This document shows positions 12,109-60,918 of a DNA stretch of 64,000 nt, one piece after another. This DNA is from Azolla caroliniana (Eukaryota; Plantae; Polypodiophyta). Below the pieces are notes generated by a model. It ran no database searches. It was not told the origin of the DNA and worked only from the letters and a program-made list of their open reading frames with translations. The stretch lies in NCBI GenBank assembly GCA_043228905.1, contig JBHGNT010000002.1, positions 22,692,001 to 22,756,000 on the forward strand, in the 5' to 3' direction. A program made the translations under genes and the position numbers. Each line of letters opens with the position of its first letter. Position 1 is the first letter of the stretch.

Positions 12109-12392
12109 TGAAGAGAATATGCGGAATAATGCTCAGCCACAACCGAGTCTTCGATCACTTCGTTGAGAATTACAAACACATAAATGGGAATGTGGAGATA
12201 GATGCACGTATACACAAAACACTGAAAGAGAGTACACAATATGTTTACGTGGAAAACCCTAAATGGGAAAAACCATGGGAGTCCACAGACTCCAAGCTAT
12301 CACTATGTAAGGAGAATACAACAAAGGAACATAGAGGCAACGATCTCGTCCTCACACTCTTCGCCTGGCGGCAGTTACAACAGAGACACACT

Positions 12393-12455
<63 letters not shown>

Positions 12456-38209: not shown

Positions 38210-38692
38210 AGAGGGCTATCAAGGCGTGGGGTCGTGATAGTCCGGACTCCCGGGAACAACCCCACAGTACGGAAGAAGACTTGTACCATGGGTAGGAAGT
38301 TTTGGTTCTCCGGCAACGGAGGTTGTACTATAACCAGCGTCAGCGGCCGGGAGAGGAAGCGAGCGGAGGAGCAGCTCAAATGGATGCAGAGTCCTCTTCC
38401 CCGACGAATGTTAGGAATTGACTCTTTCCAAAACCTTCCCCTCTCGGCCACAACCGAGGAAACACGAATCAATGCAGCAGAAAATCGAAAACACAGAGAG
38501 AGACTCGAATGCACAGGATTTAGCGTGGAAAACCCTAGACGGGAAAAACCACGGGTGTCATAACTAGACTCGAACCCATAACCTTTTGTTACACGGGTCG
38601 AGACTTTACCATTAGGTTATGAATTGTAATTTGAAGGATATTATTTTCATTTAGGTTTTATTGGGAAATTGATGTATATTCCAGATTTCTCT

Positions 38693-38738
38693 GGAACATT
38701 CTAGAAACTTCAGGAGTATTCCTGAAGACACTATAAAA
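38693..38738 (+). promoter_or_regulatory. HSE-like array plus TATA box in the Chromo-2 5' LTR
   Basis: GAAcaTTCtaGAAacTTCagGAGtaTTCctGAA followed by TATAAAA at 38732. Confidence 0.65.
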
Positions 38739-38845
38739 GGAGGCGCAAGGCATTAGTTCGAACCAAATCGGTTCAACGCCAGTCTTAAGCCTTCTAACTA
38801 CTGTTGTATATCTTCCGTCATATAATACATATATCTTTCGCATCA

Positions 38846-38887
<42 letters not shown>

Positions 38888-39108
38888 ACTCATTCCTTCT
38901 CTCAAAGTTCGACACCTCTCATAGTACTAATCCTTCTCTGTCTTAGTACTATTCCCCAACAATAGTACTAATCCTTCTTTTAGTACTAATTCCTTCTCTG
39001 CCTTAATAGAGTTCCTGACAGTTTGAACCGATTTTGACTACTAGTCTCCCTCTTCCTTCTGTCTCCCTCCTTTCCTACTAGTCTCTTATTTCCCTTTTCC
39101 TTCATCCC

Positions 39109-40278
39109 ATGGCCACCGTTAGCGCTGAAGAGTATCAATCCGTTTTCTCGGAATTTCAATGCTTGAAAGAGAAGTTTCATGCTTTGGAACAAGAAAATCA
39201 ACGCTTGTTGGGGGATCTTCAGCAAATTTCCTTAGAAAAGCGGCAAACGCAACAACAGCATGGGGAACTTGCGTTACGCGTGCAACAACTCGAAGCAACC
39301 ATCGTAGCAATGCAACAACAAGGGCACGGAGCACAAGGGATTTATAAAGAACCCAAGATTGGCCTTCCCACGAAGTTCGATGGAACGCGATCGCAGTTTA
39401 GAGGGTTTCTTAACCAGGTACGGTTAGTTATTCAAATGCATCCGTCCCGATATCCCACCGATGCATCACGAGTGGGTTTAGTAGGCACGTTGTTAAATGG
39501 CTCAGCATTAGCATGGTTCGCTCCGCTACTAGAAAAGGAATCTCCAGTACTAAATAATTTTGAAGAATTCATAAGTGAGTTTAAAGCATGTTTTGGAGAT
39601 ACTGACAGCATAAGGACTGCAATCAACAAAATCCGGCGATTACGCCAAGGTGACCGTCCAGCCTCCGCATATGCTGCAGATTTCCGCCTACTCGCCGCCG
39701 ATATCCCCTGGGATGATCAAGCATTGATGGAGCAGTTCCGCTATGGTCTACGCAACGATGTCAAGGATTTACTCTTGACTTTCCCTGAAGAGCCAAAATC
39801 ATTAACAGAAGCAATCAGTCGAGCGGTCAGATGTGACAACCGCCTCTTCGAGCGACGTTCGGAACGACAATTTCAGATGCCGAGGGCAAGATCCGAGCCT
39901 ACCTATGCCTCAGTGGTAGCGAAACCTTTTCAAAGGGAGTCACATAATGCGCCTCCAGTAAGTACTCCAACTCCAATGGAAATTGACACTACACGTCGTC
40001 GTGGGCCGCTATCGGAGGAGGAAAAGCAACGACGCCGAACAAACCGATTATGCCTTTATTGCGGTGGACCAGGGCATATCGCGATAAACTGTCCCCATAG
40101 ACCAAGAAGGCAGGTAAACCAAGTCATTGTTAGTTCTGACTATACTAAACCCGAGTCTATTTCAGTAGGAATCTCTGATAATCCTCATAGTCATAATAGT
40201 CCTAATAGTACTAATAGTCCGAATCTCGCAAACAAATTTGATGTCCTTAGCCAATTAGAAGAAGAGTTAAACGACTAA
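39109..40278 (+). CDS. gag: Chromo-2 Gag (coiled coil, Ty3/PEG10-like capsid, CCHC knuckle), 389 aa
   Basis: Intact ORF; PTKFDGTR, LRQGDRPASAYAADFR, CLYCGGPGHIAINC. Confidence 0.95.
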   Translation: MATVSAEEYQSVFSEFQCLKEKFHALEQENQRLLGDLQQISLEKRQTQQQHGELALRVQQLEATIVAMQQQGHGAQGIYKEPKIGLPTKFDGTRSQFRGFLNQVRLVIQMHPSRYPTDASRVGLVGTLLNGSALAWFAPLLEKESPVLNNFEEFISEFKACFGDTDSIRTAINKIRRLRQGDRPASAYAADFRLLAADIPWDDQALMEQFRYGLRNDVKDLLLTFPEEPKSLTEAISRAVRCDNRLFERRSERQFQMPRARSEPTYASVVAKPFQRESHNAPPVSTPTPMEIDTTRRRGPLSEEEKQRRRTNRLCLYCGGPGHIAINCPHRPRRQVNQVIVSSDYTKPESISVGISDNPHSHNSPNSTNSPNLANKFDVLSQLEEELND

Positions 40279-43159
40279 GTCCAGCCAAAATAGGAGCCGT
40301 TTGGTTGGACAGCCCTAGATCTGTGCAGCCCATTAGTGGTTCCATTCCCTCTAAGCAAGTTAGTGATGTGTTCGTAGCCCAAGTAGCAGTTAGTACTAAA
40401 AGTACCCCTCCAGTACATACCTTAGCCCTTCTAGATTCCGGAGCTAATTCTTGCTTCATGGATAGGAATTTTGCCCGAGCTCATCAGATATCTCTCAGAA
40501 AGCTCCCATGTCCAGCCTCAGTAGTAGTCATTGATGGTCGTCCCATTGCTTCTGGTAATATCATAGAAGAGTCGGAACCCGTTAATATTGTCCTAGATAA
40601 CTTAACATGTGTAGTATCATTTAATATTATTAGTATTCCAGAACATCCCATAGTTTTAGGATTACCATGGTTCGAGTTACATGACCCAGACATAGATTGG
40701 AGGACAAGGGAAATCCGGTTGCGACAAACCCAAGGATCTACCCAGAAGGTTGCAACCATTTCGCTACGTCAGTTGCGTGAGGAAGGGCGCAAGGAGGAAA
40801 TGTTTCTCTTTGCAATATCAGTACAACCCTCCAGCACCACCAAAGAGGAGTCCACCGTTCAACTTCCCGAGAAGTATCGTCAGTATGCTGATGTGTTCGA
40901 TAAAGTACAAGCCAACACACTTCCTCATCATCGGCCGTACGACTGCGCCATCGACTTACAACCGGGAAAAGAACCGCCATGGGGGCCGATCTACAATTTG
41001 TCACCAACCGAGCTAGAAGTCCTTCGAGCCTATATAGAGGAGAATTTGGAGAACGGTTTCATTCGGCATTCGAAATCTCCAGCCGGCGCACCCATTTTCT
41101 TCGTCAAGAAAAAAGATGGCTCGCTTCGACTCGTTGTAGATTACCGTGGCTTGAATAAGGTCACAGTAAGAAATAGGTATGCTCTTCCCCTTATCTCAAG
41201 TCTTTTAGAACGGATCAACGGTGCCAGGTTCTTCACGAAGATCGACTTACGAGGAGCCTATAACCTCGTACGGATCCGACCAGGAGATGAATGGAAGACC
41301 GCGTTTCGCACCAGATATGGGCACTTCGAGTATACGGTCATGCCGTTCGGACTCACTAATGCGCCGACAGTCTTCCAGCACATGGCGAATGATATATTTC
41401 GAGATCTCTTGGATGATTTTTTGATCATCTATTTGGATGATCTACTGGTTTATTCAAAGACCCAAGAAGAACATGATTCTCATGTACTATTAGTACTAAA
41501 ACGACTTCGAGAACATGGTCTGTATGCAAAGTTAGAGAAATGTAGTTTCGGGTGCAACCAAGTGGAGTTTCTCGGCTATGTCATCTCCTCAGAAGGCATA
41601 TCTATGGACCCAGCCAAGGTCAAAACGGTGATAGAATGGCACACTCCGCGTTCGGTGCGGGATGTGCAATGCTTCCTAGGCTTTGCAAATTTCTACCGGA
41701 AGTTCATACAAAATTACTCAAAAATTGTGCTGCCTCTCACACAGCTCACCAGGAAGGGACAATCATTCATTTGGTCTAAAGAGACGGACATGGCTTTCGA
41801 GAGTCTTAAGAAGGCGTTTACATCAGCTCCAATTTTAGGTCATGTGGATCCGGAAAAACCATTCATTATCGAAGCTGATGCATCGGATTTCGCATTGGGG
41901 AGCATTCTGTCACAACAGGGTAAGGACGAGAAGCTACATCCTGTGGCTTTCCACTCCCGTAAGTTTGACGCCGCCGAAATCAACTACGAAATTCATGATA
42001 AAGAGCTATTAGCAATAGTTGATTCTTTTATGCAATGGAGGCATTTCCTGGAGGGATCTCCTCATCAGGTCACTGTATTCAGTGACCACAAGAACCTTGC
42101 CTACTTTCAAGATGCTCGTGTACTGAATCGACGTCAAGCTCGGTGGGCCCACTTCCTCACACGCTTCGACTTCAAAATTACATATCGTCCGGGGAAGCAC
42201 CAAGGGAAGGCAGATGCATTATCACGACGTTCGTATCTAACACCACGTCCCGGTGAGCCAGCTTTCGATAACCAGAAACAAGTAATCTTGGGTCCAGCAC
42301 GACTGCAAGCAGCACAGGTCTTTGACATGCCCGTGGATTCCGACATTACCAATACTATACGTGAGGACTTGAAGACTGACGCTTTCGCCCAAGCTATACT
42401 AGCACAAATTGACCCCTCTCGAGCGTCATGTTCACAATCACAATCACCAGGTACGGATTATCGGCAATTCAAATACTGTGATGGATTACTCTTCTTTAAA
42501 GAACTTTTGTATGTTCCTAATGGTTCTTGCCGCCTTCGAGTAGTACAAAACTGCCATGACACATATACAGCAGGACATTTTGGTAGTACTAAAACATTAG
42601 ATTTAGTACAACGATCATTTTGGTGGCCCCGTATGCGACAATTTGTCGAAGATTTTGTTCGGACTTGCGATACATGCTGCAGAGCGAAAATGCCAAGACA
42701 TCATCCATATGGTTTATTAGAACCATTACCAATTCCAAGCAAGCCATGGCAATCCATTGCTCTTGACTTCATTACAGATCTTCCAGTCTCTAAGGGATTC
42801 AGTGCGATTTTCATAGTGGTGGATCGATATACGAAGATGGCTCATTTCTTACCATGTACTAAAGAAATATCTAGTGAAGACACCGCCGAAATTGTCATGC
42901 GGGAAGTATGTCGGCATCATGGACTCCCTGATAATATCATCAGCGATCGTGGACCCCAGTTTGTGTCAAAATTCTGGAAGCACCTTTTTAAAATGCTGAA
43001 GGTCACTTGTAACCTCTCCTCCGGCTACCACCCACAAACCGACGGTCAAGCTGAACGAACAAATCAAACACTGGAGCAGTATCTGCGGTGCTTTCTCAAC
43101 TATCATCAGAATGACTGGGCATATATTCTTCAGTTCGCCGAATTTGCCTATAATAACGC
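40266..43159 (+). CDS. pol: Chromo-2 Pol, 5' part (PR, RT, RH, most of INT), -1 frame relative to gag, interrupted at 43160
   Basis: LLDSGA, YLDD, ADASDFALG, HHCC, SDRGPQF, QAERTNQ, FAYNNA then the insertion. Confidence 0.95.
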
Positions 43160-43566
43160 TGTGGAGATATTACGCAAGTGCGTGTGGAATCGAGGCGGGA
43201 CCGCGGGGGTCTCGAACCAAAGAGCAAGCGAGGGAGGAGAAAGAGAGAGAACCGGCTACGCAGGACCGGGGATACACAGGGACACGGCCCTTCAGCACGG
43301 AGAACGCGAACAGACACCGACACAGACAGATGCGAACGACTAAATATGTATATTAACAAAATTGCTAACACGATTACAACCCTCGATGGGGCACAGGTTG
43401 GTTACAACCGAACAGGCCGGCGAACAGATGCCGATGCCTGTTCGCTTCGACGCACAAACGGGGTAGCAGGTCGGAGGTGCTGCCGGAAGCACTCGGGCGT
43501 TCCTCGAAACAGCGCGAGCCTCCTCGGAACCCTGCACAGAAGCTATGGAGCTCGAGAAGGAAGGAG

Positions 43567-43601
<35 letters not shown>

Positions 43602-44038
43602 CTCCCAGAAACGGTCCGGCAGCACTTCGTCCTCTCCGCGCGTCGAGATCCCTGCAACAGCTCTTTCCCGCTCCTTATATAGGCCGACGAGCAGGCCGTC
43701 GTGTCAGCTTTATTCCCTGTCCCTTTTGGACAGGGATCCGCTCCGTTTTTCACGCATCCGCGTAGTTACGCCGCCGACTCGTACAGTTCGCGCGCGCGAC
43801 CGAAAAGACTGTTCGCGCGGTCTTTGTCTCCACGCGAGTTAGGGCCCGTTCTTGCCGATTATCCTCCTAATTCGCTTCTATGTACAACTTGGAGCGTGCG
43901 CGCGTGAAGAACCGGTTCCCACGCCTTGGTGCGCCGATTCCGCCTATGGACGGTTTTCTTCACGACATCCGCCCCCACCTAACCGCGCATCCTCCGGTAT
44001 GCGCCAAGAGAGTTGGGACGGAGAAAACCGGCCCGTCT

Positions 44039-47000
44039 TCATTCCTCGCCCGTCGGTTCTTCCTCGTTCTCGGATCGTTCGTCACTGCCGACCAGGAGAG
44101 CCGGGTCCGGCTCATCGTCATGTCGCTTCTTGAACGCTTTGATCCGCTTCCCTGCAACCGGTATCGCCACTCTCGTGCCGTCAAGTTCCGCCAGGTGATA
44201 TGTCCCGTTGTCATTGGCGCTCCGTACCACGTAGGGCCCAAACCACCTTCGTGCGAACTTCCGTGTGGCTCGGTGCTGGTTGTCGAGGCTGCTGTCGTAG
44301 ACGAGCACCCAGTCACCTTCTTCGATCTTCTTTGGTCGGAGCCGGTGCGTTCGGTCGAACCTGGCTTTGTTCTTTGCTCTCGCCACCCGGAGCCTCTCCG
44401 TAGCCAGTTCCACGTCCTCCGGTCTCCGCTCGAGCTGTCGTATGCGCGCGGCCAACAACTCCTCCCGGCTCATCTCGTCCCGCCAGGCGACCGTTGCCCA
44501 CGAGGAGATCGTCCGTTCCATCGGCATGACCGGCTTCTGGCCGAACATGAGCTCCGTCGGCATGTACCCGGTTACCGAACTGTGCGTGGTCCGGTCTGCC
44601 CACAAAGCATAAGGTAGCAGCCGCGGCCAGTTACCGACTTGGCCTCCGCATGCCCGAACCAACGCCTTGACGATCGGCCCGTGTCCGCGCTCCACCTTCC
44701 CATTCGCCTCCGGATTGTACGCAGTGGTGAGCGAGAGCTTGACTCCCAGCCGGTCGAACAGCTCCGCGGCTTCTTCGGCGTCCAACTCCCCTCGGTCAGC
44801 CACGATCTTCCCGACGCACCCGTACCGGCATATCACGTCCTCGATCAGGAACCGACACACGGCCTCGGTCGTCTTGTTCTGAAGGGCTCGGCCTTCCACC
44901 TGGTTCGTCAGGTCTTCCCGCGCTAGGACCAGATACCGCATCTGTCCTACCCCCATCGGCATCGTCACTAGATCTACCATCCATTTGAAGTGGATAGTCG
45001 GAGGGTACGTAGGGCGAAGCCCGTCCCGGTGTCGGACCATCGAGTGCATCTGACAACTCTCGCAAGTTGACACGAACCGATGCACGTCCCGGTACAATCC
45101 CGGCCACCAGTACTTCCCCTTCAGCTTCTCAAATGTCGCCCACGTTCCACGGTGTCCAGCCCAAGGGCTGTCATGGTAGGCCGCCAGTAGCTCCTCCTGT
45201 TCTTCCTTCATCGCCACCACCCGGAGCGGGACGCCGTTCCTCTTCTTCGGGTGCTTCCACAAATGCCCATCTCGGAGAAAGAATCGATATGCTTTCTTCC
45301 GGATCCGGTTGGCCTCGTCCTTCGTCCATGACGCATCGGGCGTCATTGTCTTCAAAAACCCGCCGATCTGCAGCCACTCCCCGTCGTACTTGCTCGCGTC
45401 GAACTCGTTAAGCGCCGGAGTGCTCATCCCGTCGGTCGTTATGTATGCCGCCTCGAAGAAATCCACGCCGACTTCTTCGTCTTCCGAAACCATGCCGCCC
45501 TCGTCGTCGAACCTCGCCCTCGAAAGCATGTCGGCCATGGCGTTGTCTTTCCCGGAAATGTGTCGTATTTCCGGGTCCAGGGACTTGATGTACGCTATCC
45601 ACCTGAGCATCGCCAGGTCCGGAGTCGCGCATCCGGAAACCATACCGAGAATCGGCAGGCAATCCGTCTCGATGATCACTTCTGTCCCTATCAGGTAGTC
45701 TTTGTCGGCCTTAACCGCCGAAACAATACCCCAGAGTTCGCGTTTAACCTGGGCGTATCCTCGCTGTCGTTCGCTGAGGACTTTCGCGCCGAACCGGATC
45801 GGAAACCGATTGCCGTCCTCGTCTTCCTGGTTCACGACCCATCCGATCCCGGTCGGACTGGTATCCACCGTTATGAATACCGGGGTACCCTTCCCGTATA
45901 CCGCCTTCCGGAGTGCCGGTGCCGCTGCAAGGGCCTCTTTCAGCTTCCGGACCGATTCCGCGTGCTCGTCTAGCCATTCGAACCTTCGCCCCTTTTTCAG
46001 CAACCCGTACAGTGGCTCCGCGACGTGTGCGTAATGCGGGATCCATATGTGGTAGAACGCGCATGCCCCCAGGAATCTCCGTACTTCCGTGACCGAGCTG
46101 CAGTCGGGCTTCATCGCGGAGATGGCTTCTACCTTTGCCGGAGACGGTTTCCGGCCATATGGTCCGCACAGGTGCCCGACCACCATGATTTCTGACTGCC
46201 CGAAGGCCGACTTCTCCCCGGAGAAGGTGAGTCTCGCATCCTCTAGCCTTTGCAGCACCTTCTCGCAGTCGTCGATGTGCATTACCACGAATCGCCGGCA
46301 TCCGTCCGGCCCGACCGTCTCGTCCTTCTCTTCTACCGGGCATCCCTTGATCGGGATGTCGTCTAGAAACGGCATGGTGATGTCCGGGATGCAGTCCCTC
46401 AGCACCTTGTTCATTGCATTCACCATGTGGGCCACCGAGTTGGTCCCTCCTTGCGGCAGTGTACACATCCGAACTAGGCCGAGGGGAGTTCGCATCGTCG
46501 TAATGTCTCTGCTCTCCACGGCTAGCTGGAACTGGTCGTACCCTGAGTATAGATCCCCGACCAAGTAAATTGACCTCCCGGCGAAGGCCTCCGCGAACTC
46601 GTCTATGGTCGGTCCGATCCCTGCGTTCCGAATGGTCACTCGATTGACCGGCTGCAGGTCCTGGATGAAGCGCAACGAACCGTTTTTCTTCGGTACGGTA
46701 AACCATCGATTCGAATATGGGGCGCTCGACGGCTCGAGAATTCCCATATCAACTTTCTGCCTCAGCAGCTCCATCAACTTCGGGATGTGAGCTCTCGGAA
46801 CCGAAATTGCCTTGAGATTCCACGGTACATGCGGTACCGTGAATATCACCATCGGCTCTACGATCGTCGGGTCCACGCACCCGATTTCCTCCGGCGAGAA
46901 TGCGAAGGCTTTCCCGTGCCTTCCGAGCATTCTCCGGAACCGGTCTTCCTCCGCCGGCAATAGGAACCCGCCCCCACCGATCTTCAGCTCGCGGAGCGTC

Positions 47001-47527
47001 TCGTTGGTGAAGGTGTGTCCTATGCAGGCCGGATCTCGTAAGCTGGGGTCCGATGCAACCCCTTTGATTCGGGACTCGCTGCCCTCCGGTAAGGGTGCCG
47101 CGACTGGCCTCACCTTCCGATCCACGGTCTTGTACTTGGTGCTCACTCGGGCCGTCTGTTCCGACTCGAGCCCTCGACCGAAGTCCGCGATGACCTCGTA
47201 CATTTCCTCTGAACATACCGGTATCGTCCGGTCTTCGTTAAAGTCTTCTTCGACTACCTCCCCCAGCATTCCCAAGGTGTCGTCGAAGGAGACTGCCTCC
47301 ACGGCTCCGATGATTCCTTCGTCAGGGCCGAGAACTCCGCACGCCCGAAGTCTCCCCTCCGTCTTTGTTTTCTCTCGGCCGGTGATGCCGACCATCGTAC
47401 ATGCTCCGCTGTCGGAGAAGCAAAATTTCCTACCTATTGTACACGGTTTTATCGTACAGATGTGGGGTTTTCCCGGAGCATCCGGACTGTCGCGGCCCCA
47501 CGCCTTGGCAGTCCTCTCTAAAAATCC
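44039..47527 (-). CDS. pol: Copy C ORF2: RT, RNase H, integrase with GPY motif, no chromodomain; entered by predicted -1 frameshift
   Basis: Open from the slippery site to 44039; YKTVDRKVRPV, LPQGGTNS, PFLDD, VDTSPTG, H..H..CESC, VDLV/ADRGE/VERGH, WFGPY. Confidence 0.93.
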   Translation of the reverse strand, partial: GFLERTAKAWGRDSPDAPGKPHICTIKPCTIGRKFCFSDSGACTMVGITGREKTKTEGRLRACGVLGPDEGIIGAVEAVSFDDTLGMLGEVVEEDFNEDRTIPVCSEEMYEVIADFGRGLESEQTARVSTKYKTVDRKVRPVAAPLPEGSESRIKGVASDPSLRDPACIGHTFTNETLRELKIGGGGFLLPAEEDRFRRMLGRHGKAFAFSPEEIGCVDPTIVEPMVIFTVPHVPWNLKAISVPRAHIPKLMELLRQKVDMGILEPSSAPYSNRWFTVPKKNGSLRFIQDLQPVNRVTIRNAGIGPTIDEFAEAFAGRSIYLVGDLYSGYDQFQLAVESRDITTMRTPLGLVRMCTLPQGGTNSVAHMVNAMNKVLRDCIPDITMPFLDDIPIKGCPVEEKDETVGPDGCRRFVVMHIDDCEKVLQRLEDARLTFSGEKSAFGQSEIMVVGHLCGPYGRKPSPAKVEAISAMKPDCSSVTEVRRFLGACAFYHIWIPHYAHVAEPLYGLLKKGRRFEWLDEHAESVRKLKEALAAAPALRKAVYGKGTPVFITVDTSPTGIGWVVNQEDEDGNRFPIRFGAKVLSERQRGYAQVKRELWGIVSAVKADKDYLIGTEVIIETDCLPILGMVSGCATPDLAMLRWIAYIKSLDPEIRHISGKDNAMADMLSRARFDDEGGMVSEDEEVGVDFFEAAYITTDGMSTPALNEFDASKYDGEWLQIGGFLKTMTPDASWTKDEANRIRKKAYRFFLRDGHLWKHPKKRNGVPLRVVAMKEEQEELLAAYHDSPWAGHRGTWATFEKLKGKYWWPGLYRDVHRFVSTCESCQMHSMVRHRDGLRPTYPPTIHFKWMVDLVTMPMGVGQMRYLVLAREDLTNQVEGRALQNKTTEAVCRFLIEDVICRYGCVGKIVADRGELDAEEAAELFDRLGVKLSLTTAYNPEANGKVERGHGPIVKALVRACGGQVGNWPRLLPYALWADRTTHSSVTGYMPTELMFGQKPVMPMERTISSWATVAWRDEMSREELLAARIRQLERRPEDVELATERLRVARAKNKARFDRTHRLRPKKIEEGDWVLVYDSSLDNQHRATRKFARRWFGPYVVRSANDNGTYHLAELDGTRVAIPVAGKRIKAFKKRHDDEPDPALLVGSDERSENEEEPTGEE

Positions 47528-49641
47528 TCTCGGTTTTCGGAACCGAGGGAATCGCGGTTACGTTCGTGGTTCGGCCTTACCGTCAGAAACTGGACCGAAT
47601 GGCGCCCGTCTTGGCTTTTGACCCTCGCGTAGGCCGAACCATTGTCCAGCACTTTGGTCTCCATTCGCGCCGCCGTGATGTACGGCTCTCCCAGAATGAC
47701 CGGATGCGAAGACGTCTCCTGCACGAAGAAATGCTGGTCAATCTCGACGTCGCCGATCTTGACTCGCACATTCGGACAGGCCCCGTGCAGTTCCTCGGTG
47801 GCGCGCGTTGCCGCCCTTATTTTCCACCCGTGCTTGGTGTTGATCGGCCATTTGCCCTTCTTATAGAAGTCCATGGACATCAAATTGATCTCCGATCCGT
47901 GGTCTACCAAAGCTATCACCGGTTCCTGGACATCGCCGATCTTCACCGGGGTTTCCGTGGTCGCTCGGGCCCAGTGCGGTCTCGAATAGTGGCTTTCCGC
48001 CCACTCGTCTCCCAGCGCCATGTCGTCTAGGTGCGTCGTCCGCACTTCCACCGGTCTTTCCGGTTCTGTCTCCGTTGACAGCCTCTTCCGTTTCACCAAG
48101 TCCACGATGGAGTCGTGGAACTCCTTCTTGGCGATTCCCAGCACCTCCCGTAGCGACAGCTCCACCTTGCTGTCGAGGATCCGTTCCTCCAGGACCTTTC
48201 GTAAGTCCGTGGTTCTTTCTATCTCCGTCCCCAGACGGTACCCGCCCTTCTGGGGTTTATCTTGCGTACCGGCCCCGCCTGCTTCGTCCCGTCGTGGCCC
48301 GGACCGGGTCTCGTATCGTTGTGAGGGCCCGGTCGTCCCGGGTTTCCCCACCCGCTTCTCTTCTACCAGAGCCTCGTAGTTCCGGCAATCGGCTTCCACG
48401 AAGCCCGTCTTTTCCTCGACCGGGTCGCTCCACCCGGTCATCTCCCGTACCCGTTTCTCCGCACGGTCCGATTCCTCCCTCTTCATCCTCGTATCGGCAA
48501 GGCCTTCCAGCACCGTCGGCCAGAATCCGGCTTTGCTTCCTCTTCGGGCCTCGTTGCCCCCGACTCGAATACCGGCCGACGCCGAGTAGTGGACGGTTTC
48601 CGCATGTCGGGCCGCCGCCTCTTCCATCAACCTCTTCATTCCGCCTCGCCCGTCGTTTCGGCTCAGGGCCCTTCGGGTGTCGCTGGCATGCACCCGTCCT
48701 TCCCACAGGTACACCACCCTGTCCCTTAGCGCCTCCGCGAAGTCGCCGCAGTCCTTCCGAATGTGGCCGACTTCATCGCACCACATGCACCTGTTTCCTG
48801 CCGCCGGCCGTCGGTCACGAGCCGGTTCGCCACCTTCCCTTCGGGCTTGCGCGATTTGGAGGTCCTTTACCGCCCTCGTCAATTCCTCCAGCGCCGCTCC
48901 TCCGGTCGAGCCTCTGACTACGCCGGTCGAAGCCGAACCGGTTTCCAACCACTCTCCGGTCTCTTCCTTTCGCACCCGTGGCGCTGGTTCGAACTTCCTT
49001 GCTGCGACCGAGCCCGACCCGGTTACCCCGTTATCCACCCATTCTCGCCGTTTGTCGAAACGGCCACAGACTTTCTTGACAGCTGCCCAGTCGGTAGTGA
49101 GCCCGTCTTCGGTTTCCAGCAAGAGGCCCACTTGCTCCCGATCCCGCTCATCGACCGACTTGACAAACAGCAAGACCCGGCTTGTATCCAGGACCATCCT
49201 GTCAAGCGCCGAAAGGCGCGCGAAGTTCTCGAACTCCCGGAGGAGTGCCAACGCATTCCTTCCTTTCCCGGGAGACTCCACCCATTCCATGAACCTTCGC
49301 TTCGAAAGCCGGAGCGCGTCGTCCAGCCCGTATTTCTCTAGGAGCCGACCTTCGAACTCCTCCCAGGTACGGCTCTCCGCCCGCACCTCGAGCACCTCCG
49401 CATGGATGCCCGGCATTGCGACTCGGGGAAATCCGGCAAGACGCCTTTCTTCCGGAATGTCCCGCATCAACATTTCCGCACCGTAGGACGCCAGATACTT
49501 CGTGGCATCCCTCCCATCGAACCGGCCGATCGTGCCGACAACCGCCTCAATAGCTCTGTCGAGGGCACCGGTGCCCTCGCGCGCGTTTACAATCCGATCC
49601 ACGGCCGAAGCCATGGCCTCTGCAAGATCCGACCCCCTCAT
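47518..49641 (-). CDS. gag: Copy C ORF1: Gag + CCHC knuckle + aspartic protease
   Basis: First ATG at 49641 (MRGSDLAEAM); CMWCDEVGHIRKDC; ALVDHGSEIN...VILGEPY; ends GAG GAT TTT TAG. Confidence 0.92.
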   Translation of the reverse strand: MRGSDLAEAMASAVDRIVNAREGTGALDRAIEAVVGTIGRFDGRDATKYLASYGAEMLMRDIPEERRLAGFPRVAMPGIHAEVLEVRAESRTWEEFEGRLLEKYGLDDALRLSKRRFMEWVESPGKGRNALALLREFENFARLSALDRMVLDTSRVLLFVKSVDERDREQVGLLLETEDGLTTDWAAVKKVCGRFDKRREWVDNGVTGSGSVAARKFEPAPRVRKEETGEWLETGSASTGVVRGSTGGAALEELTRAVKDLQIAQARREGGEPARDRRPAAGNRCMWCDEVGHIRKDCGDFAEALRDRVVYLWEGRVHASDTRRALSRNDGRGGMKRLMEEAAARHAETVHYSASAGIRVGGNEARRGSKAGFWPTVLEGLADTRMKREESDRAEKRVREMTGWSDPVEEKTGFVEADCRNYEALVEEKRVGKPGTTGPSQRYETRSGPRRDEAGGAGTQDKPQKGGYRLGTEIERTTDLRKVLEERILDSKVELSLREVLGIAKKEFHDSIVDLVKRKRLSTETEPERPVEVRTTHLDDMALGDEWAESHYSRPHWARATTETPVKIGDVQEPVIALVDHGSEINLMSMDFYKKGKWPINTKHGWKIRAATRATEELHGACPNVRVKIGDVEIDQHFFVQETSSHPVILGEPYITAARMETKVLDNGSAYARVKSQDGRHSVQFLTVRPNHERNRDSLGSENREDF

Positions 49642-49663
49642 CTTCTGCTCTTCTGCCGCCTCT

Positions 49664-49681
49664 TTCACGTCGGGTTCACCA
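49664..49681 (-). other. Primer-binding site complementary to the 3' 18 nt of plant cytosolic tRNA-Trp
   Basis: TGGTGAACCCGACGTGAA, 4 nt after the LTR; tRNA-Trp 3' end recalled as ...TTCACGTCGGGTTCACCA. Confidence 0.85.
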
Positions 49682-50092
49682 AAGATGTGGAGATATTACG
49701 CAAGTGCGTGTGGAATCGAGGCGGGACCGCGGGGGTCTCGAACCAAAGAGCAAGCGAGGGAGGAGAAAGAGAGAGAACCGGCTACGCAGGACCGGGGATA
49801 CACAGGGACACGGCCCTTCAGCACGGAGAACGCGAACAGACACCGACACAGACAGATGCGAACGACTAAATATGTATATTAACAAAATTGCTAACACGAT
49901 TACAACCCTCGATGGGGCACAGGTTGGTTACAACCGAACAGGCCGGCGAACAGATGCCGATGCCTGTTCGCTTCGACGCACAAACGGGGTAGCAGGTCGG
50001 AGGTGCTGCCGGAAGCACTCGGGCGTTCCTCGAAACAGCGCGAGCCTCCTCGGAACCCTGCACAGAAGCTATGGAGCTCGAGAAGGAAGGAG

Positions 50093-50127
<35 letters not shown>

Positions 50128-50493
50128 CTCCCAGAAACGGTCCGGCAGCACTTCGTCCTCTCCGCGCGTCGAGATCCCTGCAACAGCTCTTTCCCGCTCC
50201 TTATATAGGCCGACGAGCAGGCCGTCGTGTCAGCTTTATTCCCTGTCCCTTTTGGACAGGGATCCGCCCCGTTTTTCACGCATCCGCGTAGTTACGCCGC
50301 CGACTCGTACAGTTCGCGCGCGCGACCGAAAAGACTGTTCGCGCGGTCTTTGTCTCCACGCGAGTTAGGGCCCGTTCTTGCCGATTATCCTCCTAATTCG
50401 CTTCTATGTACAACTTGGAGCGTGCGCGCGTGAAGAACCGGTTCCCACGCCTTGGTGCGCCGATTCCGCCTATGGACGGTTTTCTTCACGACA

Positions 50494-51200
50494 ACGCTAT
50501 CCACGCATCGACTAAAGTCACGCCATTCTACGCTTATACGGGATATCATCCCCGGTGGTGTGTCCTTGAAACCCCAGAAGTGTCCACAAATCCTTGCGCG
50601 GAGGATCGTTTGGAGCGGTTACGCAAGATACAAGCGGATTTATCTACTCAACTCCAGCAAGCTCAACAATCACACAAGGACTACGCAGATCGTCATCGAC
50701 TTCCATCCAGTTTTAACATTGGAGATCGGGTGTGGCTGCTACGACGACACATCAAGACTACTCGCCCATGTGAGAAGTTGGATTATCGGCGATTAGGTCC
50801 TTTCCGTATTATCGGGAAGATTAATGATGTCACTTTTCGTCTCGAGCTACCTCCGCAACTTCGGATACACCCGGTGTTTCATAGTTCTCTCCTCGAACCC
50901 TATCACGAGAGCACTATCCCAGGACGTACTATACAACCTCCACCTCCTATCGAGCTCGAAGATGGACCTGAGTATGAGGTCGCTGCCATCCTCGATTCCA
51001 AGATTGTTCGCAACAAGCTCTACTATCTAGTCGATTGGCTAGGATATAGTCCCAGCGAGCGTACTTGGGAACCGATCGAGAATGTGACCAATGCTCGTGC
51101 TCTTCTAGAAGACTTCCATCGACGATATCCCGAGAAACCGGGTCCTCAATCCAAAACGACTCGTGAAACTCGTCGTTTTAAAGGGGGGATAGTGTCATAA
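50494..51200 (+). CDS. pol: Chromo-2 Pol, 3' part (INT C-terminus, GPF, group-I chromodomain); stop lies inside the 3' LTR
   Basis: Same frame as the 5' part; LGPFRI, IHPVFHSSLL, YEVAAILDSK...YLVDWLGY...TWEP. Confidence 0.93.
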
Positions 51201-51482
51201 CTAGACTCGAACCCATAACCTTTTGTTACACGGGTCGAGACTTTACCATTAGGTTATGAATTGTAATTTGAAGGATAATATTTTCATTTAGGTTTTATTG
51301 GGAAATTGATGTATATTCCAGATTTCTCTGGAACATTCTAGAAACTTCAGGAGTATTCCTGAAGACACTATAAAAGGAGGCGCAAGGCATTAGTTCGAAC
51401 CAAATCGGTTCAACGCCAGTCTTAAGCCTTCTAACTACTGTTGTATATCTTCCGTCATATAATACATATATCTTTCGCATCA

Positions 51483-51522
<40 letters not shown>

Positions 51523-52305
51523 ACTCATTCCTTCTCTCAAAGTTCGACACCTCTCATAGTACTAATCCTTCTCTGTCTTAGTACTATTCCCCAACAATAG
51601 TACTAATCCTTCTTTTAGTACTAATTCCTTCTCTGCCTTAATAGAGTTCCTGACAACGGGAGTGCAAGACTCCAACTATCACTATACGCAGGGAATGTAC
51701 AATGGCGAGCTGCAAGGCGACGACCTTGAGCTCGCTGTCCTCGCCACAGGCGGCGGTATTACACAGAGGCGTCGACCTCTTCCTTTCTCTCTCTCTCTCT
51801 CTCACTCTCTCTAAGTGGAAAACAAAAAAATGAGCAACCACTACAAAACTGTTTGCCCTAAGTCATATTTATACACATATGACTTTCGGGCTATTTACAA
51901 ATATAGCCTCAAGAGCCCTTGGCAAACATATTCACAAATATGTCCCCGCATCCGGATCTCTCTCCGGGTACATTCGTCATCCGGCTCCGTAGCCGGGGTC
52001 TTCATCATCCGGATTCGGAACCGGGTCTTCATCATCCGGCTCCGATACCGGGTACTCCTCATTCGGGTCTTCATTCCCGATTCCCAGACATCCGACCATC
52101 CCATCCGGAGGGACCGTAATCCCAACAAACTCCCCCTTCACTTCGGCATGGGATGTCTTTTCAGTCCGACCCTCTTCCGGCACGCTTCCAGCTTGTCGGG
52201 TGTGAGCACTTTGGTCAGCATATCCGACCCGTTCTCGTCCGTGTGGATCTTCGTCAGCACGAACTCCTGGTCTTCTATCCTTTCCCGGATCCAGTGATAT
52301 CTTCG

Positions 52306-55300
52306 CTAGATGTGCTTCGTCCGGGAGTGATAGGCCGCGTTCTGCGCAAGGTGGATGGCACTCTGACTGTCGCAGTAGAGTCGGTACTCCTCCTGCCGGA
52401 TACCGAGCTCTCTAATGAAGTCCTTCATCCATATTATTTCCTTGCCGGCTTCAACAGCCGCCATGTACTCCGCCTCCGTGGTTGACAACGCAACCGTCTT
52501 CTGCAGCCTCGACTGCCACGAAACAGCTCCCCCTGCATACGTCATCACATACCCTGATGTGGACCGGCTGGTATCTGCATCAGCCGACATATCTGAATCG
52601 GTAAAGCCGTCGAGTTCGGGCTTACCGGAGCCGAATTGGAGGCACACGTTTGTCGTGCCCTTCAGGTATCGGAGTATCCACTTGGCCGCGTTCCAGTGCT
52701 CTTTGCCGGGATTGCTCATGTATCGGTTCACCACTCCAACTGCATATCCTATGTCCGGTCTTGTACACACCATTGCGTACATCAAGCTTCCGACGGCAGA
52801 GGCATATGGTACTTTCATCATGTCCTCCTTCTCAGCCTTTGTCTTGGGGCTTTGCTTGCTGGACAACTTGCAGTTTGCCGGGAGGGTTGACCCGACCGGT
52901 CTTGCTTCCGACATGTTGAACCGGTGAAGCACCTTTGTCACGTACTTCTCCTGTGACAGCCACAACTGCTTCTTCTTCCGGTCCCGGATGATGTGCATCC
53001 CTAGTATTTGCCTCGCCGGACCCAGGTCCTTCATTGAGAAGGTTCGGTGAAGCGCTTTCTTCAGCATCCGTATCTTGACTTGGTCCCGTCCGACGATCAA
53101 CATGTCGTCCATGTACAGGAGGAGTATTAGAAAGTCTCCTCCTTCGAACTTCTTCACAAACACGCAGTGATCGGACTGCGTTTTGTGGTACCCTTCGTCG
53201 GTCATGAAAGAGTCGAACTTCCGGTACCATTGCCGGGGAGCCTGCTTCAGTCCGTAAAGGCTCTTCTTCAACCGGCATACCAGGTGCTCCTTCCCTTTCT
53301 TCTCGAATCCTTCCGGTTGCTGCATGTAGATCTCTTCTTCGAGGTCACCGTGAAGGAATGCCGTCTTCACGTCCATCTGTTCTACCTCGAGGTCCATGCT
53401 TGCCGCTATGCTCAGCACCGTCCGGATGGAGGTCATCTTCACTACCGGGGCAAATATCTTGTCGAAGTCGACGCCCTTCTTCTGCTGAAACCCCTTCACC
53501 ACGATCCTGGCTTTGTATCTCGGGGGGTTTCCGGCATCTCCCGGTTTCAGCTTGAACACCCACTTGTTTCGAAGTGCCCGCTTTCCTTTCGGCAACTCCA
53601 CAAGTTCATATGTGTGGTTCTCATGCAGGGAATCCATCTCCTCCTGCATGGCACTTAACCACTTGCGGCTATGGGTGTCAAGCTTTGCTTCTTCAAAACT
53701 CTCCGGCTCCCCTTCGTCGGTTAGCAGCACATGCTCTGGTTCCGGAAATCTCCGGGGGGCCCTTCTCTCTCTTAGAGGATATCTCCGTTCCGGAGATTCG
53801 GTAACCGGCTCCTCCGTTTCCTCTTCATCCGAATCCATTTCGGGATCGGGGCCGGTTCCGGTATCAGTTTCATCTTCCTCGGCCGGTTCTGTTTCTTCAC
53901 CGTCTTCGGCCGGATCCTCGAGTGCTAACCGGTCCCTTGCCGGTCGGGACTGCTCCTCGTAGAGTTGATCCTCACCGGTCGACTTGGAGCTCTTCATCTT
54001 CTTCTCCGACTCCCAGTCGGCGAGTGTCTTGTCCTCCATGAAGATGATATCACGACTTCGGAATATCTTTTTGTCGACCGGGTCCCATACTCGGTAGCCG
54101 AACTCGTCATCGCCGTAATCGAGGAATATGCATGGCCGGGTCTTTGGATCTAGCTTTCCTCTCCGGTCCTTTGCCACATGCACATATACGAGACACCCGA
54201 ACACCTTCAGATGCCGGTAGGATACTTCCCTACCGGTCCACACTCTCTGCGGCGTGTCTCCATCCAAAGGTACTGAGGGTGATCTGTTTATCACGTATGT
54301 CGCCGTCGACATTGCCTCAGCCCAAAACCCCTTGGGTAATTTCGCATGCGCCAGCATACTCCGGACCCTCTCCATTATGGTCCGGTTCATCCTCTCGGCC
54401 AACCCGTTCAGTTTCGGCGTCTTCGGCACAGTAAACTCGAGCCGGATTCCCTTCGAGCGACAATACTCCTTGAACTGCCCCCGGTATTCCCCTCCGTTAT
54501 CCGCTCGTATCGCTTTCAGCTTCTTGCCGGATTCCCTTTCCACTCTCGCGTAGAGTTCTTTGAAGACGCACAACACTTGGTCCTTTGTCTTCAACGGTGC
54601 CGTCCACAACTTCCGACTATGGTCATCAATGAATGTCACGAAGTACTGGGCTCCGCCATGTGACTTCGTTTCTACTTGACACACGTCAGTGTGTACCAAC
54701 TCCAATGGTGTGCTACGTCTCGTCGGTGGCCTTGAGTGGAAGGAGGTTCGGTTCTGCTTACCGGCCAGGCAATCGGTGCACTTCTCCAGGTGCACATGCT
54801 TCACTGGAATAAGGTTGTCTTCTGCAAGCCTCTTCATCCCCTTCTCACTCATGTGGCACAGTCTCTTGTGCCACAGCTCACCGGCAGTGTCGGCTGCCAC
54901 GTTCAACTCCTCCGGACACAACCAGGCATTCATAAGGTATAGTGTGTTGACTTTCCGGGCCCGAGCCACTATCAGGCTCCCCTTGCTGAACTTCATTACG
55001 TCGTTCCGGATGCTACCTGTGTAGCCTTCATCGTCTAGCCTCCCGGCCGAAATCAGGTTCAATCGAACCTCCGGAACGTGTCGGACATCCTTCAGCAACA
55101 TTTTGCATCCGGTCGAGGTTGTCAACCACACGTCTCCTATGCCGGCAATCCGGCACGTACCTTCATTTCCCATCCGAACACAGCCATGCTCACCGGCTGT
55201 GTAGGATGAGAAGTATCTTCTTTCCGGGGTCAGGTGGAACGACGCTCCGGAATCGACCACCCAGGTAGTCTCATCGCCGACAATGTTTAGTTCACCTTCT

Positions 55301-56211
55301 TCGGTGATGAGCATGATCTCCTCTTCACTTGCCGCGAGTGCCGTCGTTCCTTTCCGGTCCTGCTCTCGCCGATCCGAACCATTCCGGTCCGTGGCTCCCC
55401 GGTAAGCACCGTTCCGTTCCGAAGACTTCTTCGAATCGGTGTTGTCGGCTCCGTTGTCTTTTCGGTAATGCCGACAATTCTTTCGGAAGTGCCCCGGCTT
55501 CCCACAGTGGAAGCATGTGGGTCTTCCTCTTGACTGCGACCGGGTCCCCGACTTCTCCCGTCTTTGCGGACTCCGGTTCCGTTGTCTTCCCCGATCCGAT
55601 TCGGTAAGCAGCATCTTCGGATCGGAGGCCGGTTCTTTATCTCTCTGACGCGCTTCTTCGTTCAAAATGCTTGTCTTTACCGTTTGTAGGGACAAGTTAT
55701 CTTCGGTGCAGGAGGTGCTGTGAGTCACCACCAAGTTCTCCCAGCTTGCCGGCAATGTACACATCAGGATGATGGCTTGTATTGCATCCTCCAACGGGAA
55801 CTTGATCGCCGCAAGCTGGTTCACGAATCCCATGAACGTGCTTACGTGTTCCACCATACTCTCGCCGTCCCGGTACTTGAGGTTCACTATCTTCCTCATC
55901 AGGGAGGTCCGGTTCAACGCATTCTTCCTCTCGTAGAGGCCCGACAGCTTCTGCCACATCTCATATGCGTTGGTGTCGTTCGCCACATGTTGTAGAACGC
56001 TCACGTCGACGTATTGCCGAATGGTTGCAACGGCTTTCCGGTTCAGAAGCCTCCATTCCGTCTCAAGTACCCCCTTGGGTATTTCCGACCTGTCGATCGG
56101 TTCATACAGGTCCCGAACAATGAGCAGATCCTCCATCTTTATCTTCCAATCGGCGTAGTTCTGCGCATTCAGCACTATCATCCCCGGCTGCCCGCTGTTG
56201 CCGCCTTCCAT
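52306..56211 (-). CDS. Copia-2 Gag-Pol polyprotein; TAG after SRTKHI, frame stays open to 52138
   Basis: Single ~1300-aa ORF: CFHCGKPGHFRKNC, WVVDSGAS, VHTDV, DNGGEY, YMDD, TDSD, YCDSQSA; ATG at 56211. Confidence 0.95.
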   Translation of the reverse strand: MEGGNSGQPGMIVLNAQNYADWKIKMEDLLIVRDLYEPIDRSEIPKGVLETEWRLLNRKAVATIRQYVDVSVLQHVANDTNAYEMWQKLSGLYERKNALNRTSLMRKIVNLKYRDGESMVEHVSTFMGFVNQLAAIKFPLEDAIQAIILMCTLPASWENLVVTHSTSCTEDNLSLQTVKTSILNEEARQRDKEPASDPKMLLTESDRGRQRNRSPQRREKSGTRSQSRGRPTCFHCGKPGHFRKNCRHYRKDNGADNTDSKKSSERNGAYRGATDRNGSDRREQDRKGTTALAASEEEIMLITEEGELNIVGDETTWVVDSGASFHLTPERRYFSSYTAGEHGCVRMGNEGTCRIAGIGDVWLTTSTGCKMLLKDVRHVPEVRLNLISAGRLDDEGYTGSIRNDVMKFSKGSLIVARARKVNTLYLMNAWLCPEELNVAADTAGELWHKRLCHMSEKGMKRLAEDNLIPVKHVHLEKCTDCLAGKQNRTSFHSRPPTRRSTPLELVHTDVCQVETKSHGGAQYFVTFIDDHSRKLWTAPLKTKDQVLCVFKELYARVERESGKKLKAIRADNGGEYRGQFKEYCRSKGIRLEFTVPKTPKLNGLAERMNRTIMERVRSMLAHAKLPKGFWAEAMSTATYVINRSPSVPLDGDTPQRVWTGREVSYRHLKVFGCLVYVHVAKDRRGKLDPKTRPCIFLDYGDDEFGYRVWDPVDKKIFRSRDIIFMEDKTLADWESEKKMKSSKSTGEDQLYEEQSRPARDRLALEDPAEDGEETEPAEEDETDTGTGPDPEMDSDEEETEEPVTESPERRYPLRERRAPRRFPEPEHVLLTDEGEPESFEEAKLDTHSRKWLSAMQEEMDSLHENHTYELVELPKGKRALRNKWVFKLKPGDAGNPPRYKARIVVKGFQQKKGVDFDKIFAPVVKMTSIRTVLSIAASMDLEVEQMDVKTAFLHGDLEEEIYMQQPEGFEKKGKEHLVCRLKKSLYGLKQAPRQWYRKFDSFMTDEGYHKTQSDHCVFVKKFEGGDFLILLLYMDDMLIVGRDQVKIRMLKKALHRTFSMKDLGPARQILGMHIIRDRKKKQLWLSQEKYVTKVLHRFNMSEARPVGSTLPANCKLSSKQSPKTKAEKEDMMKVPYASAVGSLMYAMVCTRPDIGYAVGVVNRYMSNPGKEHWNAAKWILRYLKGTTNVCLQFGSGKPELDGFTDSDMSADADTSRSTSGYVMTYAGGAVSWQSRLQKTVALSTTEAEYMAAVEAGKEIIWMKDFIRELGIRQEEYRLYCDSQSAIHLAQNAAYHSRTKHI

Positions 56212-56704
56212 TTTCTGCACTGCAGTCGCTCTGATACCAGATTGTTAGGAATTGACTCTTTCCAAAACCTTCCCCTCTCGGCCACAACCGAGGAAACACG
56301 AATCAATGCAGCAGAAAATCGAAAACACAGAGAGAGACTCGAGTGCACAGGATTTAGCGTGGAAAACCCTAAACGGGAAAAACCACGGGAGTGCAAGACT
56401 CCAACTATCACTATACGCAGGGAATGTACAATGGCGAGCTGCAAGGCGACGACCTTGAGCTCGCTGTCCTCGCCACAGGCGGCGGTATTACATAGAGGCG
56501 TCGACCTCTTCCTTTCTCTCTCTCTCTCTCTCACTCTCTCTAAGTGGAAAACAGAAAAATGAGCAACCACTACAAAACTGTTTGCCCTAAGTCATATTTA
56601 TACACATATGACTTTCGGGCTATTTACAAATATAGCCTCAAGAGCCCTTGGCAAACATATTCACAAATATGTCCCCGCATCCGGATCTCTCTCCGGGTAC
56701 ATTC

Positions 56705-56895
56705 GTCATCCGGCTCCGTAGCCGGGGTCTTCATCATCCGGCTCCGTAGCCGGGGTCTTCATCATCCGGCTCCGTAGCCGGGGTCTTCATCATCCGGATC
56801 CGGAACCGGGGTCTTCATCATCCGAATCCGGAACTGGGTCTTCATCATCCGGCTCCGATACCGGGTACTCCTCATTCGGGTCTTCATTCCCGATT
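56705..56895. repeat. ~27-bp tandem repeats in the Copia-2 5' LTR (U3)
   Basis: CATCCGGCTCCGTAGCCGGGGTCTTCAT three times plus variants; fewer units in the other LTR. Confidence 0.9.
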
Positions 56896-56940
56896 CCCGG
56901 ACATCCGACCATCCCATCCGGAGGGACCGTAATCCCAACA

Positions 56941-60226: not shown

Positions 60227-60918
60227 GGCCGGTTTTCTTCGGTATCTACCTGTCTCTGGCACATGCCGGTGGATGCGCGGTTTGGTGGGGGTGGATGTCG
60301 TGAAGAAAATCGGCCATAGGCGGATTCGGAGAGAAAGGCACGTGAACCGGCTCTTACACGGATGGACGCGTAACTTGATATTTTGTACCTGATCCATAAA
60401 TGGATCGGTGGGTGAAATACGAGGCGACATGCATTTATCAAGGGTTTGTGCGTATCTCTGTCAGACGGAGGGGAGGACAAGGAATAAAAAGGGACTTGAC
60501 AAGAGAAGAAGGGGTATCGCGCGGGAGGAGGTGGAAGGGGGTTGCTGCAGAACGGAAGGCGAGCTCTCTCTCTTGGAGGAGGAATCGTCGCTCTCTGCGG
60601 GTGTCGGGAGGTCGCTGCCTCTGCTTCGTAGACAGCCCGTGTGCTTCCAGCAGAGTCGCTCCCCTTCCCCTTTTGTTTCTTGGAGTCGGTGACCGTCATC
60701 GGTGTGCGTGAGTAGGGTCCCCGTGTCGGGCCCGTCGCCGCTTTGTCGGAGTTTGTAATCTCTGTCATTATAATTAAGTGTTACGTTCTGTGTCTCTCTT
60801 CCTCGCTTCTACGTGTCGGTGAATCTTTCTCTCTCTCTATATCTCTCTCTCTCGCTCCTCCGTCGAAGACCCCCGTGGTCCCGCCCTTTTCTACACGTAC
60901 GCGCGTAATAACGCAACA

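What the first reader, a model, noticed from the sequence alone, without database searches (positions are those of the whole stretch)
43160..50493. Intact, very young GC-rich Gypsy with a 4-bp TSD and fungal-like features
Seen: LTRs with one visible difference, two open ORFs, 4-bp TSD (ACGC; removing the insert restores YNNAIHAS in the host pol), FLDD RT motif, YKTVDRKVRPV pre-RT motif, no chromodomain, and CpG-rich composition unlike the AT-rich host. At least three LTR subfamilies occur in this window. Known: plant LTR elements usually make 5-bp TSDs, whereas Yarrowia Ylt1 makes 4-bp ones. Inference from memory: a Ylt1-like lineage poorly described in plants, possibly acquired horizontally and still active.
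Basis: partly seen in the sequence, partly recalled or inferred. Interest (0 to 1): 0.75.

Follow-up and report, generated by a model that had tools for sequence, protein, structure and literature searches.

The report
Young CpG-targeting Phygy retrotransposon, fungal kin
This is an intact, recently inserted plant jumping gene that lands at CG sites; it likely belongs to the already described Phygy group of non-seed plants, and its enzyme is closer to fungal elements than to the other plant Gypsy groups tested, which points to an old rather than a recent link with fungi.

Summary
43160-50493 (minus strand) is an intact Ty3/gypsy element: 808-bp LTRs with one substitution, two open ORFs, no chromodomain, and a 4-bp TSD (ACGC) inside a Tcn1-like chromovirus. 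All 15 of 15 insertions checked in the genome have a 4-bp TSD with central CG, and the primer site matches the host's tRNA-Trp over 18 nt. These traits are what REXdb lists for the Phygy lineage (4-bp NCGN TSD, tRNA-Trp, no extra domain), and Phygy nested in Tcn1 is in print. Nearest named relatives are from Physcomitrium, Riccia and Adiantum, so recent horizontal acquisition is not supported. The fungal kinship is real but deep. RT is 40-44% identical to chytrid, ascomycete, basidiomycete and Chara elements, against 27-30% to the host's Tat-like elements. The tree groups it with the fungal elements (100/100) and rejects a grouping with the Tat-like ones (p 9e-5). I did not find that link in the papers searched. 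Verdict: new member of a known kind, with a modestly interesting origin question.

The parts
49686..50493 (-). 5' LTR, 808 bp, TG...CA
   Evidence: one substitution against the 3' LTR
49664..49681 (-). primer binding site, 18 nt complementary to the 3' end (with CCA) of host tRNA-Trp(CCA), 4 nt from the LTR
   Evidence: 4 of 4 fetched pattern loci are tRNA-Trp genes; 64 matches in all
47518..49641 (-). ORF1 Gag-protease, 707 aa: CCHC knuckle (aa 285), DUF4100, aspartic protease motif (aa 577)
47521..47527 (-). predicted -1 frameshift heptamer GGATTTT just before the ORF1 stop, followed 6 nt later by a 6-bp stem
   Evidence: (surrounding motif matched in 10 of 12 other copies); function inferred
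44039..47557 (-). ORF2 Pol, 1172 aa: YKTVDRKVRPV, RT (FLDD), RNase H, integrase (HHCC, D-D-E); no chromodomain, no archaeal-type RNase H
43968..43984 (-). polypurine tract abutting the 3' LTR
43160..43967 (-). 3' LTR, 808 bp
43156..43159 (+). left TSD copy, ACGC
50494..50497 (+). right TSD copy, ACGC
38556..51655 (+). host Tcn1-like chromovirus (gag, pol, chromodomain; 5-bp TSD ACGGG), interrupted in its integrase by the focal element

Best explanation
An intact, recently inserted Ty3/gypsy LTR retrotransposon, likely of the Phygy lineage, whose family inserts at CG dinucleotides with a 4-bp duplication. It would be transcribed from the 5' LTR and make Gag-protease by default, with Pol made through a predicted -1 frameshift at GGAUUUU. 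Reverse transcription would be primed by host tRNA-Trp and the polypurine tract. The integrase is inferred to cut 4 bp apart around CG. Because old intergenic DNA here has lost most CpG, this preference would steer new copies into other young, CpG-rich retroelements and build the nests seen in the window. The lineage is old in land plants and belongs to a larger clade of chromodomain-less Gypsy elements that includes fungal ones. Shown: anatomy, TSD rule, PBS match, nesting, tree position. Inferred: frameshift, integrase preference as the cause of the TSD rule, present-day activity.
For: TSD: 12 of 12 LTR pairs (including the focal one) and 1 solo LTR, plus 2 further pairs, all 4 bp with central CG; background CG 1-5%, up to 12% in flanks. 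Second subfamily: 11 of 12 non-tandem 3' flanks begin NCGN (LTR end located in 15 of 30 loci, 3 of these tandem). PBS-Trp. REXdb Phygy row: 4 bp (100%) NCGN, tRNA-Trp 81%, no extra domain, no extra ORF. Organism-named homologues: 36 of the 120 listed Pol hits, all Riccia; 21 of the 120 listed Gag-PR hits: 14 Physcomitrium patens, 4 Riccia, 3 Adiantum. Protease region mostly 59-71% identical to these against 27-33% to three outer-clade proteins. Nesting: 10 of 13 sites have a retroelement protein match in a 500-bp flank, 5 of them in the same lineage. Youth: 0-3 substitutions per LTR pair, 3 of 12 with none; 8 of 12 other full copies keep both ORFs at full length. Poly(A) reads of relatives, mostly 90-95% alike, in 3 of 3 RNA runs of a different species label (one study), sense-biased over pol in 2 of 3. 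Tree: focal clade with Riccia 100/100; with fungal and Chara elements 100/100 on a long stem.
Against: Length 7334 bp (copies 7275-7331) is below REXdb's Phygy range of 7656-9968, which rests on P. patens alone. REXdb reference sequences were too large to read, so the element was never placed beside a labelled Phygy RT. The P. patens hits cover Gag-PR and only short N-terminal Pol pieces. The frameshift region folds no better than shuffles (z 0.0). One copy (L069) has a single fused ORF, and 1 of 12 second-subfamily flanks lacks CG. RNA depth is low (212-692 reads laid per about 12 million) and not from this copy.
Confidence: 0.85

Rival explanations
1. An unnamed sister lineage of Phygy in liverworts and ferns that shares the TSD rule and primer but would be a separate clade in REXdb terms.
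For: Shorter than the Phygy range; no labelled Phygy RT in my trees; Gag only 30-45% identical to most P. patens hits.
Against: All structural traits match the Phygy row; the best protease matches are P. patens proteins (65-71%); Phygy has already been called in a liverwort genome (PMC12885004, passages).
Confidence: 0.1
2. A fungal Ylt1-like element that jumped recently into this plant.
For: High GC (GC3 0.72 against 0.34 in a host RING ORF); fungal elements share DUF4100 and the pre-RT motif.
Against: Named fungal RTs are only 40-44% identical, Riccia 71-74%; relatives in moss, liverwort and fern; the PBS fits the host tRNA; the window's copia also has GC3 0.67 and CpG o/e 1.0; several diverged subfamilies (about 80-88% in pol) exist in the genome.
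Confidence: 0.03
3. The CG at the target centre reflects survival or detection bias among copies nested in GC-rich DNA rather than integrase preference.
For: Most flanks are CpG-rich retroelement DNA.
Against: Flank CG frequency is at most 12%, yet 15 of 15 sites have CG at exactly the two central positions, and positions outside the 4-mer show no clear bias; the same rule is published for 186 P. patens elements.
Confidence: 0.02

Closest known systems
Phygy (REXdb non-chromovirus clade, Physcomitrium patens; PMC6317226)
   Same: 4-bp NCGN TSD, tRNA-Trp PBS, no chromodomain or aRH, no extra ORF, coding region fills the interior; frequent nesting in Tcn1 (PMC6911290).
   Different: Shorter (7.3 kb against 7.7-10 kb). 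REXdb lists the ORF layout as not determined; here it is Gag-PR overlapping RT-RH-INT in the -1 frame. The host is probably not P. patens and may be a vascular non-seed plant (aRH-bearing Gypsy elements; MIR172-like hairpin below cut-off).
Fungal chromodomain-less Ty3/gypsy elements (Ylt1-like and SN_1006 of PMC2864245)
   Same: One RT-RH clade with elements of Chytriomyces, Zalerion, Tilletia, Phenoliferia and Trametes; no chromodomain in any; DUF4100 in Tilletia and Phenoliferia; pre-RT motif of the YKxVxxKxRPV type in many.
   Different: Only 40-44% RT identity; the plant clade has its own long stem; TSD and PBS of the fungal elements were not examined; Ylt1 itself was not available.
Selgy (REXdb)
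   Same: Short non-chromovirus, 4-bp TSD, overlapping ORFs.
   Different: tRNA-Ala PBS, 4.4-6.7 kb, break between GAG and PROT, no NCGN rule.
OTA superclade (Athila, Tat)
   Same: Plant Gypsy elements without chromodomain.
   Different: Mostly 5-bp TSD (4 bp in TatI and half of TatII), longer, aRH or extra ORFs; the host's own Tat-like RTs are 27-30% identical, and grouping with them is rejected (p-AU 9e-5). Athila was not in my trees.

Membership tests
Phygy | 4-bp TSD | tested here: met
   15 of 15 insertions
Phygy | NCGN target motif | tested here: met
   15 of 15 focal family; 11 of 12 one-sided flanks in a second subfamily
Phygy | tRNA-Trp primer binding site | tested here: met
   18-nt match to host tRNA-Trp(CCA)
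Phygy | no chromodomain, aRH or extra ORF; coding region fills the interior | tested here: met
Phygy | length within the reported range 7656-9968 bp (descriptive; one species) | tested here: not met
   7334 bp; copies 7275-7331. The paper calls size relatively insignificant for classification.
Phygy | RT-RH-INT clusters with REXdb Phygy references | not testable with these tools
   REXdb FASTA and element table too large to read; indirect only: best protease hits are P. patens proteins
Ylt1-like fungal lineage | RT groups with fungal chromodomain-less Gypsy elements | tested here: met
   100/100 clade of 39 of 49 rows; 91/75 for 95 of 109 rows under a simpler model
Ylt1-like fungal lineage | groups with Yarrowia Ylt1 itself | not testable with these tools
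   no named Ylt1 sequence returned; original paper not held
Ylt1-like fungal lineage | 4-bp TSD in Ylt1 | tested here: inconclusive
Selgy | tRNA-Ala PBS and GAG/PROT frame break | tested here: not met
   PBS-Trp; the break lies after the protease
Tat (OTA) | archaeal-type RNase H; grouping with Tat RT | tested here: not met
   no RVT_3 hit; AU test rejects
Chromovirus (Tcn1) | chromodomain, 5-bp TSD | tested here: not met
   RT 28% identical to the host Tcn1-like element

The most novel reading that the evidence does not exclude
Phygy is not a relative of the plant Athila/Tat elements but the land-plant branch of the fungal Ylt1-like Gypsy lineage, taken up from an early-diverging fungus by early land plants: a second fungus-to-plant Gypsy transfer beside Tcn1, with Chara carrying a separate branch. 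Its integrase is a CpG-specific, chromodomain-free targeting enzyme that uses unmutated CpG as a mark for young transposon DNA.
Probability: 0.3. Interest if true: 0.6.

Novelty: new member of a known kind. Interest (0 to 1): 0.3.

Why it matters
As a Phygy copy it is ordinary, though useful: intact young copies give the ORF layout that REXdb lists as not determined, and probably extend the host range. The more interesting point is the origin. REXdb states that the relation of plant non-chromoviruses to non-plant lineages 'remains unclear'; the trees here tie this lineage to fungal elements and away from Tat-like ones. A strict CG-centred target rule in a genome with CpG-depleted intergenic DNA also offers a simple, testable explanation for self-nesting without a chromodomain.

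Tried and rejected
5-bp or other TSD lengths: none in 15 sites. Recent fungal transfer: rejected. CpG richness as a sign of foreign DNA: rejected, since the young copia and Tcn1-like elements share it; the Tat-like elements do not (o/e 0.55-0.63). Naming of relatives mostly failed: 0 of 10, 0 of 10, 5 of 10 and 1 of 120 carried an organism, so most tree rows are unnamed. Insertion polymorphism: no listed contig bridged the left junction in 4 DNA runs, but only 28 of 153 pieces were shown and the host family is multicopy, so no conclusion. No RNA holder of the stretch was listed. Frameshift structure: overall fold z 0.0; only one compensatory and one G-U change in the 6-bp stem across three subfamily copies. 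PDB gave only Ty3 and retroviral RTs. Paper searches: Phygy + retrotransposon 18 papers; Ylt1 with moss 2, with plant and phylogeny 5, with TSD 3; non-chromovirus, fungi, bryophytes, Ty3, horizontal transfer, DUF4100 (5 of 6 terms) 0; NCGN 2. None that I read links Phygy to Ylt1; subscription papers and the REXdb tree figure could not be seen.

Full report
Observation. The element runs from 43160 to 50493 on the minus strand. Its LTRs are 808 bp, end TG...CA and differ at one position; the flanks match at 4 bp (ACGC) and not at 3, 5 or 6. Contigs of public DNA runs show uninterrupted copies of the host family carrying the 4-mer once. ORF1 (49641-47518) holds a CCHC knuckle, DUF4100 and an aspartic protease motif. 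ORF2 (47557-44039) overlaps it in the -1 frame and holds YKTVDRKVRPV, RT with FLDD, RNase H and an integrase with HHCC and D-D-E. There is no chromodomain, whereas the interrupted host element has one and a 5-bp TSD, as REXdb lists for Tcn1. One substitution in 808 bp would mean some tens of thousands of years at recalled plant rates near 1e-8 per site per year, with wide error.

Family survey. A search of the 523-Mb genome scored 40 of 2413 candidates and fetched 30 loci. These gave 12 LTR pairs and one solo LTR with both flanks; the other five loci were single LTRs with one outer flank or none. All 13 have a 4-bp TSD with CG in the two middle positions; two more full copies do too, so 15 of 15. 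Background CG is 1% in intergenic DNA and about 5% in the window, and positions outside the 4-mer show no clear bias. In a second subfamily the LTR end was located in 15 of 30 loci: 3 continue into a primer site (tandem) and 11 of the other 12 begin NCGN (one side only). LTR pairs differ by 0-3 substitutions, and 8 of 12 other full copies keep both ORFs at full length. Ten of 13 sites have a retroelement protein match in a flank, five in the same lineage.

Priming and expression. Four bases inside the 5' LTR lie 18 nt complementary to the 3' end of tRNA-Trp. The pattern has 64 matches in the genome, and 4 of 4 fetched loci are tRNA-Trp(CCA) genes. A polypurine tract abuts the 3' LTR. ORF1 ends in a GGATTTT heptamer (recalled as a -1 slippery site; from no call), kept in two other subfamily copies of the window and matched with its context in 10 of 12 family copies. 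A 6-bp stem follows with one compensatory change, though the region as a whole folds no better than shuffles. Poly(A) RNA from a different species label (three runs, one study) gave 330, 212 and 692 reads of about 12 million each, mostly 90-95% alike and sense-biased over pol in two runs. Relatives are therefore transcribed at a low level; this copy is not shown to be.

Comparison with print. Neumann et al. 2019 (PMC6317226; passages, section 15 and supplementary file 5 read; the element table and FASTA were too large) define Phygy from Physcomitrella: 186 elements, TSD 4 bp (100%) NCGN, tRNA-Trp PBS 81%, 7656-9968 bp, no extra domain or ORF, layout not determined. Jedlicka et al. 2019 (PMC6911290, passages) report 4-bp TSDs as commonest in Phygy, and Phygy inserted into Tcn1 as the commonest of their repeated nested pairs, most of them from P. 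patens. Phygy is also called in the liverwort Apopellia (PMC12885004, passages). Every structural trait but length matches. Named homologues agree: 36 of 120 listed Pol hits carry an organism, all Riccia; 21 of 120 Gag-PR hits do: 14 P. patens, 4 Riccia, 3 Adiantum. Protease-region identity is mostly 59-71% to these and 27-33% to outer-clade proteins. The direct test, a tree with labelled REXdb sequences, could not be run.

The fungal link. A search of 1.84 billion representatives shows a drop from the plant group (about 53-74%) to a broad group at 34-45%. None of the six has a chromodomain; Tilletia and Phenoliferia carry DUF4100, and the Atlas lists DUF4100 clusters as Streptophyta first and Basidiomycota next. 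RT identity is 71-74% to Riccia, 40-44% to the fungal and Chara proteins, 27-30% to the genome's own aRH-bearing Tat-like elements and 28% to the host Tcn1-like element. A 109-row RT-RH tree (LG+F+G4) and a 49-row subset under a mixture model both place the plant clade among the fungal elements. In the second, that grouping has 100/100 on a long stem, and holding the plant clade with the Tat-like elements is rejected (p-AU 9e-5; the Tat-like branch is long, and Athila and Selgy were absent). The plant clade's nearest neighbours, including the chytrid element, have only moderate support (93/87), and the Chara branch lies apart. Novikova et al. 2010 (PMC2864245, passages) divide fungal Gypsy elements into chromoviruses, Ylt1-like and SN_1006, so 'Ylt1-like' fits by elimination only. 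Neumann et al. call the relation to non-plant lineages unclear. Vendrell-Mir et al. 2020 (PMC7466625, passages) found the tree of P. patens RLG2 congruent with species; whether RLG2 is Phygy I could not check. My searches found no paper making the Phygy-Ylt1 link, within an open-access library. Other papers opened: PMC3248453, PMC8307478, PMC5014426, PMC4408406, PMC13469084, PMC12924346 (passages only).

Composition. The element is 59% GC with CpG o/e 1.19, but the window's young copia (1.0) and Tcn1-like (0.92) elements are also undepleted, while intergenic DNA is at 0.37 and the Tat-like elements at 0.55-0.63. High CpG is thus compatible with youth and lineage style and does not show foreign origin.

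Host. A non-seed land plant is likely from the homologues and the Tcn1-like element. aRH-bearing Gypsy elements and a sub-threshold MIR172-like hairpin (absence of miR172 from mosses is recalled) hint at a vascular plant. The species was not determined.

Verdict. The feature is real and most likely a young Phygy element (0.85), so a new member of a known kind; interest 0.3. The bolder reading, an ancient fungus-to-plant origin of Phygy with a CpG-specific integrase, is not excluded (0.3) and would rate about 0.6.

Noticed in passing
window 34500-63300: A multi-level nest: focal element inside a Tcn1-like chromovirus (38556-51655), inside an LTR of a copia (about 38409-56900), inside a second Phygy-type subfamily (35399-60918), whose 5' LTR sits in the gag of a third (LTR ending 35146). 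Coordinates of the copia ends are approximate.
   Followed up: partly
window 60296-63300; L035, L036, L055: The second subfamily's 3' LTR is followed at once by a PBS and a new gag (tandem elements sharing an LTR); 3 of 15 located LTR ends show this, one being the window's own. A paper on tandem LTR structures was listed (PMC11899658; listing only).
   Followed up: partly
window about 63300: Another LTR beginning TGTCGTG interrupts the pol start of the tandem copy right after ACGG, again a CG-centred site.
   Followed up: no
proteins P0242, P0190, P0181, P0147: Chara braunii has elements in the same large clade on a separate branch (99/99; only P0242 is named), with a weak DUF4100 hit, although REXdb found no non-chromoviruses in its algae.
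   Followed up: partly
G000, L078-L090: Many young Gypsy elements with an archaeal-type RNase H (102 RVT_3 matches, ORFs up to 1768 aa). PMC4408406 (passages) found moss Tat-like elements without aRH, which hints at a vascular host; PMC12885004 calls Tat I-III in a liverwort, so the hint is weak.
   Followed up: partly
L069: One family copy has Gag-PR and Pol in a single 1883-aa ORF instead of two overlapping ones.
   Followed up: no
G000 C8:17.80-17.82 Mb, C16:4.99-5.11 Mb, C5:10.11 Mb: Matches to the tRNA-Trp pattern lie in clusters, some spaced about 0.9-1.2 kb apart like tandem arrays (64 matches); only 4 loci elsewhere were checked with ARAGORN.
   Followed up: no
window 26480-28150: Intronless ORF with zinc-ribbon and RING-H2 domains (556 aa stop to stop), the only clear host gene seen.
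   Followed up: no
window 1973-12738: An older copia of the same group as the 52-56 kb one (80%), with a degenerate Tcn1-like element nested in it.
   Followed up: no
L092:1501-1670: MIR172-like hairpin with both arms, 43 bits, below Rfam's cut-off of 70.
   Followed up: partly
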